From NCBI GenBank assembly GCA_024275655.1, contig JAJRYR010000063.1:1-47719 (forward strand): DNA of 47,719 bases, written 5' to 3'. Position numbers and translations under genes: made by a program. Origin of the DNA: an archaeon (GTDB lineage Archaea > B1Sed10-29 > WALL01 > WAMD01). This document shows positions 27,630 through 30,600 of this stretch, one piece after another. Below the pieces are notes generated by a model. It was not told where the DNA came from and searched no databases. It worked only from the letters and a program-made list of their open reading frames with translations. How positions within the stretch are numbered: the first letter of the stretch is position 1; every line of letters begins with the position of its first letter.

Positions 27630-30600
27630 GAGCTTTCACCCTCGGGCTCTTAGTACCCGCGGACTCAACGGGTCGCCGAAGCTTCCCGCTTACATCCCGG
27701 GCCTATCAAACCCGTCTTCTACGGGCGCCCTCGCCCCTGTACAGACCTCAGTTGCCCAAGGCCTGCACAGGAGATGGCCGGCTCGTCTTGGGGGCCGCTT
27801 CAGGCTTAGATGCCTTCAGCCCTTATCGGCCCAGGGCGTAGCTGCCCGGCATTGCCCTGTCGGACAACCGGCAGACCAGAGGCCCCGACCCACCGTTCCT
27901 CTCGTACTTGGTGGATCTTACCCTCAGCCGGCCCACGCTCCCGGTAGGTGCCGCCAAACTGTCTCGCGACGTTCTGAACCCAGCTCACGTTTGCCTTTAA
28001 TGGGTGAACAACCCCACCCTTGGCTGCTGCTGCACAGCCAGGATGGCAAGAGCCGACAGCGATGTGGCAAACCGCGGGGTCGATGTGAGCTCTCGCCCGC
28101 GACAACTCTGTTACCCCCAGGGTAACTTTTCTGACAGAGCAGGCCCCCACCAAAGGGGACACTGCTGTTCGCTAGGCCCGGCTTTCGCCCCTGCGTTCCT
28201 CATTGTGCGGAACGCAGTCAGGCCACCATTTGGCCTTGTCCCTCTAAGGCGGATTTCTGACCCGCCTGAGGTGACCTTTGGGCGCCCTTGATACCTTTTC
28301 AAGGGCGTACCGCCCCAGCCGAACAGCCCACCTGACGCTGTCCCCTTCCCGGGTAACGTGCACAACCACAGGAAGGCAGTGTCCCATTGGCGCCTCCACG
28401 GGCCCTGGCGAGCCCGCTTCGACGGCTCCTGCCTACGCTTCATACCCATGGTCGTGCACGAACGTCAGGCTGCTGTAAAGCTCCATGGGGTCTTCGCGCC
28501 CCACCGGGAGTTGCTGGCGTTTTCACCAGCAGGTAGGTTCGCCGGGTCCCTCCCTGGGACAGCGGGAGCCTCGTTATGCCCTTCATGCAAGCCGCCAATT
28601 AAGCGGCGAGGTATTACGCTACCTTAAGAGGGTCAGAGTTACCCCCGCCCTTCACCAGGGCTTAAGCCCGTTGTACCGGGCTTTCACCTTCTGGCAGTGG
28701 GCAGGCATCGGCCCCTGTACATAGGGTTGCCCCCTAGCAGGGACCTGTGTTTTTGGTAAACAGTCGGACTCCCCTTGTCACTGCGACCTGCTAGCCCACG
28801 AGTTATTCTCGCGGGTAGCAGGCACCCCTTCTACCGAAGATACGGGGCCAGTTTGCCGATTTCCCTAGGGAGGGTTATCCCGCCACACCTTAGTCTTCTC
28901 AACCTGGGCACCTGTGTCAGTTCTGGGTACGGTCGTGAAGGCCACCATTTCCCACTTCCCTTTTCATGGGCCCCAGGGATCAGCGGAACCCCCAAAGGGG
29001 GCCCATCCCAGTTTAGGCCGGTTCTCTCCTTTACGGATCTCCCCGGCCTTATCCTGGTTAGCCAGAGCGACGACTCTGGTCCGCCTACCCCGAGGCGTCA
29101 GGAAGTGGGCGAGGCAACCTCCACGGCGCCGGAATATTAACCGGCTTCCCCTTCGCCCGCGTCGGGTTACGAGCGGGCTTAGGACCGGCTTACCCTCGGC
29201 TGACGAGCGTTGCCGAGGAACCCTTGCCCTTTCGGTGGTCGGGATTCTCACCCGACTTTCGCTGCTACTACTGCCAGGATCTTCATTCCAGCGAGGTTCA
29301 CTGGACGTTACCGCCCAGCTTTATCCCTCGCCGGACGCCCCCCTACCGGATGTCTCCTGTTTCCAGGAGACCCCCAGGGTATCGGTGGCTGGCTTGAGCC
29401 CCGTCCATCTTCAGGGCCCCCTGCCTCGGCGGGTAAGCTGTTACGCACTTTTTAAAGGATGGCTGCTTCTAAGCCTACCTCCCCGCTGTCTTGGGCAGAG
29501 GACTCCCTTTAGCCTTTAACACTTAGCCAGCACTTTGGGACCTTAACCCTGGGCTGGGTTGTTCCCCTTTCGGACGTGGAGTTTACCCCCACGCCCCGAC
29601 TCCCGGCTTCTACGGCGACGACAGGTTCGGAGTTTGACAGGGAGGCTGAGGATTTCTCCCCTTGACCTCCCAATCAGTGACTCTACCCTGCCGTCTACCT
29701 CCACCGAGGTCATCCTGTGGGATGTCTCGGGGGGAACCGGCTATCGCCCGGCTCGATTGGACTTTCACCCCTAGACCCAGCTCACGGGAACGGATTGAGC
29801 CCAGAACCCCTTGCGGGCCTCCATCGGCCTGTTGGCCGACTTCACCCTGGCCAGGCCTAGGTCGCACGGGCTTCCGGTCTGGCAGCCACGACTACGGGCC
29901 CTTTCAGACCCTGCCCCTCGGCCAAAGGCTTGCGGGCTATCGGTTTCCCTACGGCTCCACCCTTTCCAGGGCTTAGCCTCGCCGTGACCACCAACTCCCT
30001 GGCTCATGCTTCAAGACGAACGGCGCGACACCGGTAACCTTCCCTCGTACTCCGCCCTCACGAGCGTTTCCTTCGGGAAGGGTATCCTTTCATGCCGCGC
30101 CTCATGTAACCGTGTGGTTTCAGGCTCTTTTCACCCCCCGCCAGGGGTGCTTTTCAGCGTTCCCTCACGGTACTAGTGCGCTATCGGTCTCGGACGCATA
30201 TTTAGGGTTGGGAGTTGGTTCTCCCACCTTCCCGCAGGACTAACCAACCTACGGTACTCTGGAACACCGCATAAGAACCCTGTTGGGCTTCGGCTACGGG
30301 GCTGTCACCCTCTATGGCAGGCCATTCCAGGCCACTTCACCTCGCCCACAGGGCCCAAGCGGGTCCCACTAAACCCCACATCTCTCTGACCTTACGGCCA
30401 GAGATTCGGTTTGCCCTGTGCCGCTTTCGGTCGCCCCTACTCACGGCATCGCGATTGCTTTCTTTTCCTGCCGGTACTAAGATGTTTCAATTCCCGGCGT
30501 GCCCGATCCCAGGCAAAGCCCGGGACCAATTCAGCGATCCCCGGTTCTAAGGCTGCATGCGCCTCGCCGGGGCTTATCGCAGCTTGCTACGGCCTTCGTC

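What the first reader, a model, noticed from the sequence alone, without database searches (positions are those of the whole stretch)
28051..28120. Three substitutions in the peptidyl-transferase centre of 23S rRNA
Seen (minus strand): GGGGGUAACAG instead of GGGGAUAACAG (A2448G, nt 28114), and CACAUCGCUGUCGG instead of CACCUCGAUGUCGG (C2499A, nt 28063; A2503C, nt 28059), E. coli numbering aligned by eye. A2451, U2506, the P-loop and the sarcin-ricin loop are intact and helices are compensated, so this does not look like a pseudogene. Known: A2503 is near-universally conserved, is the RlmN/Cfr methylation target at the tunnel entrance, and changes at 2499 and 2503 affect PTC-binding drugs. Inference: a naturally re-wired PTC, possibly co-adapted, drug-insensitive, or suited to translating polylysine-rich proteins.
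Basis: partly seen in the sequence, partly recalled or inferred. Interest (0 to 1): 0.75.

Follow-up and report, generated by a model that had tools for sequence, protein, structure and literature searches.

The report
Lineage-typical variants in archaeal 23S rRNA
The three unusual bases near the catalytic centre of this archaeon's large ribosomal RNA are real, but they are inherited, lineage-typical variants shared with many other archaea, so the gene is an ordinary working rRNA.

Summary
Observation confirmed. Alignment to E. coli rrlH and to Rfam's archaeal LSU model places A2448G, C2499A and A2503C at window 28114, 28063 and 28059, as reported. The gene is the genome's only 23S, is full length, and has an intact catalytic core.

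The variants are not special to this genome.
- Own phylum (31 genomes, 16 with the region): G2448 16/16, A2499 7/16, C2503 9/16. The same clean triple occurs in G005.
- A Micrarchaeota-like phylum: 56 of 131 matches carry all three.
- C2503 is fixed in sampled Thermococci (71/71 matches) and in a Methanomassiliicoccales-titled order (57/57).
- A2499 is the majority state in a Nanoarchaeota-titled phylum (66/78).
- All 12 combinations of states at the three sites occur somewhere, so there is no obligate coupling.

Two further differences were missed: A2032 and U2586C. In M. smegmatis, G2032A plus C2499A is a known synergistic linezolid-resistance pair.

Most likely this is a functional ribosome whose peptide-bond chemistry is normal. 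Its tunnel entrance and drug pocket differ, which predicts (untested) lower sensitivity to PTC-binding compounds.

I found no open-access paper noting that "universal" A2503 is C in whole archaeal orders.

The parts
27630..30647 (-). 23S (LSU) rRNA gene, full length, the only copy found in the genome
   Evidence: RF02540 2750 bits, model 1-2987 of 2987. One match in the own genome, 88% complete.
28114..28114 (-). G at E. coli position 2448 (A2448G)
   Evidence: G in 16 of 16 matches of the own phylum and 131 of 131 in the phylum of G040.
28063..28063 (-). A at position 2499 (C2499A), facing A2453 (window 28109)
   Evidence: A in 7 of 16 in the own phylum, all in the own order. Also 125 of 131, 66 of 78 and 7 of 48.
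28059..28059 (-). C at position 2503 (A2503C), tunnel-entrance nucleotide
   Evidence: C in 9 of 16, 57 of 131, 71 of 71, 57 of 57, 6 of 78 and 0 of 48.
28521..28521 (-). A at position 2032 (G in E. coli; variable in archaea), a neighbour of 2499 in the second shell
   Evidence: A2032 occurs with A2499 in 6 of the 8 sequences of the own order. G2032A/C2499A is a synergistic linezolid-resistance pair in M. smegmatis (PMC4652758 passages).
27976..27976 (-).
   Evidence: C in 17 of 20 relatives' loci.
30896..32367 (-). 16S rRNA gene of the same operon (context)
   Evidence: RF01959 1489 bits.
30739..30844 (-). tRNA-Ala(UGC)-like gene in the 16S-23S spacer with an insert of about 33 nt in the T-loop (context)
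   Evidence: Rfam tRNA 30 bits over 30788-30844. ARAGORN finds none there. Sequence read.

Best explanation
This is the single, functional 23S rRNA gene of a small-genome (DPANN-type) archaeon from a hydrothermal-vent-labelled community.

The three substitutions are inherited character states of its lineage, not errors and not a private innovation. G2448 is fixed in its whole phylum. A2499 arose within its order, where it usually occurs with A2032. C2503 is a recurrent archaeal state.

The inner catalytic shell is untouched, so peptide-bond formation should be normal. This shell comprises A2451, U2506, U2585, A2602, G2447, G2061, A2062, C2063/A2450, and the P- and A-loops. What differs is the second shell and the tunnel entrance (2032, 2448, 2499, 2503, 2586).

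In bacteria these nucleotides tolerate mutation. There they shape the pocket for phenicols, oxazolidinones, pleuromutilins and proline-rich peptides, and they take part in the A2062-A2503 nascent-chain sensing relay. Archaea lack the RlmN methylation of A2503 and have G2058. The bacterial reasons for keeping A2503 therefore probably do not apply, and the site drifts or is tuned by lineage.

Shown: the sequence states, their placement, and their distribution. Inferred: normal catalysis, altered tunnel-entrance and drug-pocket properties, and the reason for relaxed constraint.
For: Placement.

Sole full-length copy with an intact core.

The same clean triple occurs in G005 of the same order. G008 and G011 have the triple plus U2504C, and G010 has it plus G2505U, with a compensated 2454/2498 A-U pair.

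Distribution, as matches with the state over matches examined:
- G2448: 16/16, 131/131, 11/78, 0/71, 0/48, 0/57.
- A2499: 7/16, 125/131, 66/78, 0/71, 7/48, 0/57 (same calls).
- C2503: 9/16, 57/131, 6/78, 71/71, 0/48, 57/57 (same calls).

2453/2499 take many pairings across relatives: A.C, A.A, U-A, G-C, G-U, A-U, U.U.

Tolerance in E. coli: A2448 and A2503 are among the mutationally flexible PTC-ring positions, and A2503 has a mutant with at least 75% of wild-type activity (PMC7049736 passages). A2503C is viable in single-rrn E. coli SQ110 (PMC4797290). The nucleobases of A2062, A2503 and U2586 do not contribute significantly to protein synthesis itself but matter for drug-dependent stalling (PMC5499644 abstract and passages).

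No RlmN was found in the genome. The Cfr/RlmN family is absent from Archaea except Nitrosopumilus (PMC2836569).

Contigs from two studies reproduce the bases.
Against: No functional data exist for this ribosome.

Some relatives of this lineage carry far more drastic PTC changes: G2447C, G2505U or G2505A, and C2507G. Relaxed selection or real functional change in DPANN ribosomes therefore cannot be separated here from neutrality.

Support from sequencing runs is from contigs, not raw reads. The best holder may be the source sample. At 28059, abundant other contigs carry the A2503 state; these are other organisms of the community.

Only about half of the genomes in each group had the region assembled (for example 16 of 31, and 130 of 301). 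Kin are not independent.

The group names (Thermococci, Micrarchaeota-like) are inferred from titled loci with the same or similar sequence, not given by the tool.
Confidence: 0.85

Rival explanations
1. Adaptive re-wiring: the combination 2032A/2448G/2499A/2503C/2586C was selected, for example for insensitivity to PTC-binding natural products made by neighbours or hosts.
For: A2503C is selected by chloramphenicol in E. coli SQ110 and Rhodothermus marinus, and it raises Onc112 resistance about 4-fold. C2499A confers linezolid resistance and is synergistic with G2032A. The window carries both A2032 and A2499, as do 5 other sequences of its order. Among the 20 relatives plus E. coli, G2032 is seen only with C2499 (6 of 6).
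Against: The sites vary independently, and all 12 state combinations are seen. C2503 is fixed in ecologically very different archaea, namely vent heterotrophs and gut or sediment methanogens (titles). A2499 occurs with U2032 in L005 and L017. No drug phenotype was tested, and kin are not independent.
Confidence: 0.15
2. Relaxed purifying selection in reduced-genome symbionts: drift is eroding conserved PTC-periphery nucleotides.
For: The three DPANN-type phyla sampled show many departures at otherwise conserved sites: G2447C, U2504C, G2505U/A, C2507G, and 2586 as C, A or G. A non-DPANN phylum shows only A2499 in 7 of 48 matches.
Against: C2503 is also fixed in free-living Thermococci and in the Methanomassiliicoccales-titled order. 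States are stable within clades rather than scattered. Helical changes are mostly compensated (2454/2498 in L006; C2507G with C2582 in 2 of 13, but with A2582 in 11 of 13).
Confidence: 0.3
3. Artefact: sequencing error, chimeric assembly of a conserved rRNA stretch, or a non-functional pseudogene copy.
For: The genome is a 73-contig assembly from a metagenome, and rRNA regions are prone to chimeras. Other organisms' contigs dominate the depth at 28059.
Against: The same bases occur in independently assembled relatives. Exact contigs come from X1, and near-exact ones from another study, X5. The gene is the only 23S found, is full length with an intact core, and lies in a 16S-tRNA-23S operon within a 47.7-kb contig.
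Confidence: 0.03

Closest known systems
23S rRNA of Thermococcales (class of G036; L139 is titled Thermococcus sp.)
   Same: C at 2503 with an otherwise canonical 2501-2507 segment, in a functional archaeal ribosome. Fixed in all 71 matches from 70 genomes, many of them closed.
   Different: It keeps A2448, C2499 and U2586.
23S rRNA of Micrarchaeota-titled genomes (phylum of G040; for example L034, L068, L105)
   Same: The identical triple G2448/A2499/C2503 with canonical 2504-2507 in 42 of 131 matches, and C2586.
   Different: A different phylum. 2032 is U in the one member checked (L017). Other clades of that phylum keep A2503 but have G2505A and C2507G.
Laboratory PTC mutants: E. coli SQ110 A2503C, Rhodothermus marinus A2503C, M. 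smegmatis G2032A-C2499A
   Same: The same nucleotide changes at the same positions. They are viable and change responses to chloramphenicol, Onc112 and linezolid (passages).
   Different: Those are recent single or double mutants in bacterial ribosomes under drug selection. Here the states are ancient, clade-wide and in an archaeal context (G2058, no RlmN). No phenotype is known.
Cfr/RlmN-methylated A2503 of bacteria
   Same: It concerns the same tunnel-entrance nucleotide and the same drug pocket.
   Different: It is a base modification of an adenine by a radical-SAM enzyme. Here the base itself is C and no RlmN homologue was found.

Membership tests
Archaeal LSU rRNA (Rfam RF02540) | Full-length match to the covariance model above the gathering score | tested here: met
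   2750 bits against a threshold of 50, model positions 1-2987 of 2987, not truncated.
Archaeal LSU rRNA (Rfam RF02540) | Intact catalytic and tRNA-binding nucleotides (A2451, U2506, U2585, A2602, G2061, A2062, C2063, G2251-2253, G2553, sarcin-ricin loop) | tested here: met
   All are identical to E. coli in the pairwise alignment.
Archaeal LSU rRNA (Rfam RF02540) | rRNA operon context and sole copy | tested here: met
   16S, a spacer tRNA-like gene and 23S lie on one strand. One 23S match was found in the 88%-complete genome.
rRNA pseudogene or degenerate copy | Truncation, loss of core nucleotides, many uncompensated helix changes, or a canonical copy elsewhere | tested here: not met
   Full length with an intact core. 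In the regions inspected only one flagged mismatch (A2455.C2496) was seen. No second copy was found.
Drug-resistance-type PTC variant rRNA (A2503C; G2032A/C2499A) | Same nucleotide identities at the same positions as selected resistant mutants | tested here: met
   C2503, A2499 and A2032, compared with passages in PMC4797290, PMC8614978 and PMC4652758.
Drug-resistance-type PTC variant rRNA (A2503C; G2032A/C2499A) | Reduced inhibitor binding or sensitivity of the ribosome | not testable with these tools
   Needs biochemistry or genetics. The organism is uncultured.
Co-adapted (obligately coupled) triple substitution | The three states occur together and not separately across lineages | tested here: not met
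   All 12 combinations of (A/G)2448, (C/A/U)2499 and (A/C)2503 are seen.

The most novel reading that the evidence does not exclude
The 'universally conserved' tunnel-entrance sensor A2503 is not universal. Whole archaeal orders (Thermococcales, Methanomassiliicoccales) and large parts of several DPANN phyla run on C2503 (or U2503). In DPANN, U2586 also varies.

DPANN ribosomes additionally show stepwise natural rewiring of the PTC second shell: 2032-2499-2453, 2447/2448 and 2504/2505/2507. On this reading the A2062-A2503 nascent-chain and drug relay is a bacterial (and eukaryal) feature rather than a property of all ribosomes.

These lineages would then be a natural library of viable PTC variants that does not seem to be discussed in the open literature I could search.
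Probability: 0.35. Interest if true: 0.55.

Novelty: new member of a known kind. Interest (0 to 1): 0.3.

Why it matters
For this window it matters little. The gene is a normal 23S rRNA carrying the states typical of its clade.

The by-product is more useful. Ribosome papers routinely call A2503 universally conserved (for example PMC5499644). Yet it is C in every sampled member of two well-known archaeal orders and in many DPANN genomes.

That gives natural, viable contexts for studying what A2503, C2499/G2032 and U2586 are for, including cultivable and genetically tractable Thermococcales. It also cautions against flagging such positions as anomalies in archaeal metagenome bins.

Tried and rejected
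1. A Watson-Crick tertiary pair 2448-2586. In 20 relatives G2448 goes with C2586 and A2448 with U2586, with two exceptions. Across 69 loci from the collection scan the pairs are A/U 22, G/C 13, A/A 12, A/C 10 and G/A 4 (about 10 rows are unreliable because of introns, and one is a false positive). Rejected as a strict pair.

2. Obligate coupling of the three sites: rejected (see the membership test).

3. Sequencing runs. Only Logan contigs were available, so there was no true read-level validation. Many laid contigs belong to other organisms. 47 difference rows were not shown, so absence of variants at 28063 and 28114 rests on the exact contigs listed, not on the table. An RNA-library contig (X8, 28079-28171, 1 difference) is compatible with expression but proves nothing.

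4. Literature. The searches were:
- A2503 + archaea + peptidyl transferase + conserved (34 papers)
- DPANN + 23S rRNA + peptidyl transferase (4 papers)
- A2503 + Micrarchaeota (1 irrelevant)
- C2503 + 23S rRNA (1 irrelevant)
- A2503 + Thermococc (the 5 listed are irrelevant by title)
- A2503C
- A2448/C2499 terms

None describes natural C2503 in archaea. One search was badly framed (min_terms 2) and uninformative. PMC524298 (the A2453-C2499 pair) is not held. Subscription papers and supplements were not seen.

About half of its rows are chance hits in bacterial protein genes, so it gives presence, not frequency.

6. The phylum of G039 proved to hold only 3 genomes.

7. uL3/uL4/uL22 loops and the polylysine idea were not examined. 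I only noted one lysine-rich ORF.

8. Earlier scan notes: one unrelated note on this genome and none on A2503.

Full report
**What is there.** The window holds one rRNA operon on the minus strand. The 16S gene is at 30896-32367 and the 23S gene at 27630-30647. The 23S matches Rfam's archaeal LSU model end to end (2750 bits, model 1-2987). The window is contig C51 of a 710-kb, 73-contig, 88%-complete genome, and this is the only 23S found in it. The rRNA genes have about 60% G+C against about 44% for their surroundings.

**The observation.**
- The cmscan alignment shows consensus GGGGAUAACaG against GGGGGUAACAG, and ACcUCGAUGUCgG against ACAUCGCUGUCGG, at top posterior probability.
- A global alignment to E. 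coli K-12 rrlH (fetched) gives A2448G at window 28114, C2499A at 28063 and A2503C at 28059.
- A2451, A2062, G2061, C2063, U2506, U2585, A2602, G2553, the P-loop and the sarcin-ricin loop are unchanged.

- U2586C at 27976.
- A at 2032, window 28521. This is G in E. coli and variable in the archaeal consensus.
- An A2455.C2496 mismatch closing helix 89. Relatives have A-U or G-C there.

C2057/G2611 and G2058 are ordinary archaeal states.

**Is it an artefact?** Logan contigs of run X1 tile 27993-28277 without a single difference. In run X5, from another study, an exact contig covers 28090-28146, and nothing disagrees at 28059 (0 of 24.7 depth). In X1, X2 and X8, abundant other contigs carry the A2503 state at 28059, as expected from other community members. 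These are contigs, not reads, and X1 may be the source sample. The stronger argument is that independently assembled relatives share the states.

**Distribution.** I used a degenerate pattern spanning positions 2438-2525 and read the states from the printed matches.

| Group | Genomes searched / matches | G2448 | A2499 | C2503 |
|---|---|---|---|---|
| Own phylum (= own class) | 31 / 16 | 16 | 7 | 9 |
| Phylum of G040 (Micrarchaeota-like) | 301 / 131 | 131 | 125 | 57 |
| Class of G036 (Thermococci) | 100 / 71 | 0 | 0 | 71 |
| Order of G563 (Methanomassiliicoccales-titled) | 81 / 57 | 0 | 0 | 57 |
| Phylum of G564 (Nanoarchaeota-titled) | 201 / 78 | 11 | 66 | 6 |
| Phylum of G033 | 121 / 48 | 0 | 7 | 0 |

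Notes on each group:
- **Own phylum.** All 7 A2499 sequences are in the own order; 2499 is otherwise U in 4 and C in 5. Five carry all three states. G000 and G005 are otherwise canonical, G008 and G011 add U2504C, and G010 adds G2505U plus a compensated 2454/2498 A-U pair.
- **Phylum of G040.** It resembles loci titled Micrarchaeota. The 131 matches come from 130 genomes. U2503 occurs in 3. All three states occur in 56 matches: 42 otherwise canonical and 14 with G2505A. Two of the 131 matches come from G237 and G068, which the tool flags as unpublished. Both have G2448, A2499 and A2503. Without them the counts are 129/129, 123/129 and 57/129.
- **Class of G036.** I take it to be Thermococci because loci titled Thermococcus sp. 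and Methanofastidiosia carry the same sequences. Genomes were at least 90% complete, and the 71 matches come from 70 genomes. All have A2448, C2499 and C2503.
- **Order of G563.** It was reached through a locus titled Methanomassiliicoccus. The 57 matches come from 55 genomes. All have A2448, U2499 and C2503. One of them looks like a contaminant of another lineage.
- **Phylum of G564.** It was reached through a locus titled Nanoarchaeota. The 78 matches come from 76 genomes. U2503 occurs in 5 and U2504C in 14.
- **Phylum of G033.** Genomes were at least 95% complete.

About 68 of the 120 rows were true 23S genes, all archaeal in type except one from a Rhodothermus-titled bin; the rest were chance hits in bacterial genes.

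**Are the three changes coupled?** No. Taking (A/G)2448, (C/A/U)2499 and (A/C)2503, all twelve combinations occur in some lineage. Position 2499 faces 2453, and the two take many forms in relatives: A.C, A.A, U-A, G-C, G-U, A-U and U.U. A looser link may exist between 2032 and 2499. A2032 occurs with A2499 in 6 of the 8 sequences of the own order, and G2032 is seen only with C2499 (5 relatives plus E. coli). However, U2032 also occurs with A2499, and kin are not independent.

**What the literature says.**
- PMC7049736 (passages): A2448 and A2503 are among the mutationally flexible PTC-ring positions in an E. coli cell-free system, and A2503 has a variant with at least 75% activity.
- PMC5499644 (abstract and passages): it calls A2062 and A2503 universally conserved. 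Their nucleobases do not contribute significantly to protein synthesis itself, but they form a contact needed for macrolide-dependent stalling, as does U2586.
- PMC4797290 (passages): A2503C is viable in single-rrn E. coli SQ110, was selected on chloramphenicol, and gives about 4-fold Onc112 resistance.
- PMC8614978 (passages): A2503C arises among chloramphenicol-resistant Rhodothermus marinus mutants.
- PMC4652758 (abstract and passages): C2499A alone (Halobacterium halobium), or synergistically with G2032A (M. smegmatis), gives linezolid resistance through long-range effects on U2504 and C2452.
- PMC2836569 (passage): the Cfr/RlmN family is absent from Archaea except Nitrosopumilus. No RlmN profile match exists in this genome.

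I found no held paper noting natural C2503 in archaea. Subscription journals and supplements were not seen.

**Interpretation.** This is a working archaeal 23S rRNA with clade-typical states in the second shell of the peptidyl-transferase centre and at the tunnel entrance. Catalysis should be normal because the inner shell is intact. This is an inference from the E. coli data above.

The shape of the pocket for PTC-binding compounds should differ from the bacterial textbook case, and so should any A2062-A2503-type nascent-chain relay. Lower sensitivity to such compounds is a reasonable but untested prediction.

Why the sites are free to vary in archaea is inferred. Archaea have no RlmN methylation and already carry G2058. 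In DPANN, purifying selection may also be relaxed, given the much more drastic changes seen in some relatives: G2447C, G2505U/A, and C2507G with 2582 as A in 11 and C in 2 of 13 sequences checked.

**Verdict.** The claim of rarity is wrong for Archaea. The 'co-adapted, drug-insensitive, polylysine' readings are unsupported, apart from a possible 2032-2499 link. The finding is ordinary for its lineage. The wider pattern is worth a systematic look: C2503 is fixed in whole archaeal orders, and the PTC periphery is plastic in DPANN.

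Noticed in passing
window 30739-30844 (-): The 16S-23S spacer holds a tRNA-Ala(UGC)-like gene of 106 nt. It has an insert of about 33 nt inside the T-loop and an encoded CCA, which suggests a non-canonical intron. ARAGORN misses it, and Rfam scores only the 5' part (30 bits).
   Followed up: partly
window 8314-9861 (+): An ORF of 515 aa with 20.5% lysine and runs of K6 and K4.
   Followed up: no
phylum of G040, e.g. L155-L159, L164-L169: A large clade of Micrarchaeota-like genomes keeps A2503 but has G2505A, C2507G (with 2582 as A in 11 and C in 2 of 13 checked), A2453C and G2446A. 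These are drastic natural changes in PTC nucleotides usually called invariant.
   Followed up: partly
own phylum: L013, L018, L019 (G014, G015, G025): G2447C together with G2448. Two of the three also have G2505U and C2507U. G2447 is a core PTC nucleotide.
   Followed up: no
L011 (G005) and L012 (G004), aligned after E. coli position about 2530: Two genomes of the window's order carry an insertion of about 44 nt in the helix 91 region of 23S. The window lacks it.
   Followed up: no
L124 (Rhodothermus-titled bin): A bacterial-type 23S with natural C2503. The same change is selected by chloramphenicol in laboratory R. marinus (PMC8614978). This is a single bin, so it could be an error or a real variant.
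   Followed up: no
L044, L097, L125, L130, L132, L135, L142, L146 (Micrarchaeota-titled): The sequence upstream of position about 2475 is unrelated to 23S in these loci, which suggests introns or insertions inside helix 89.
   Followed up: no
window 26001-32000: The rRNA operon has about 60% G+C against about 44% for the flanking genes. This fits a thermophile, and the holding runs are labelled hydrothermal vent metagenome.
   Followed up: no
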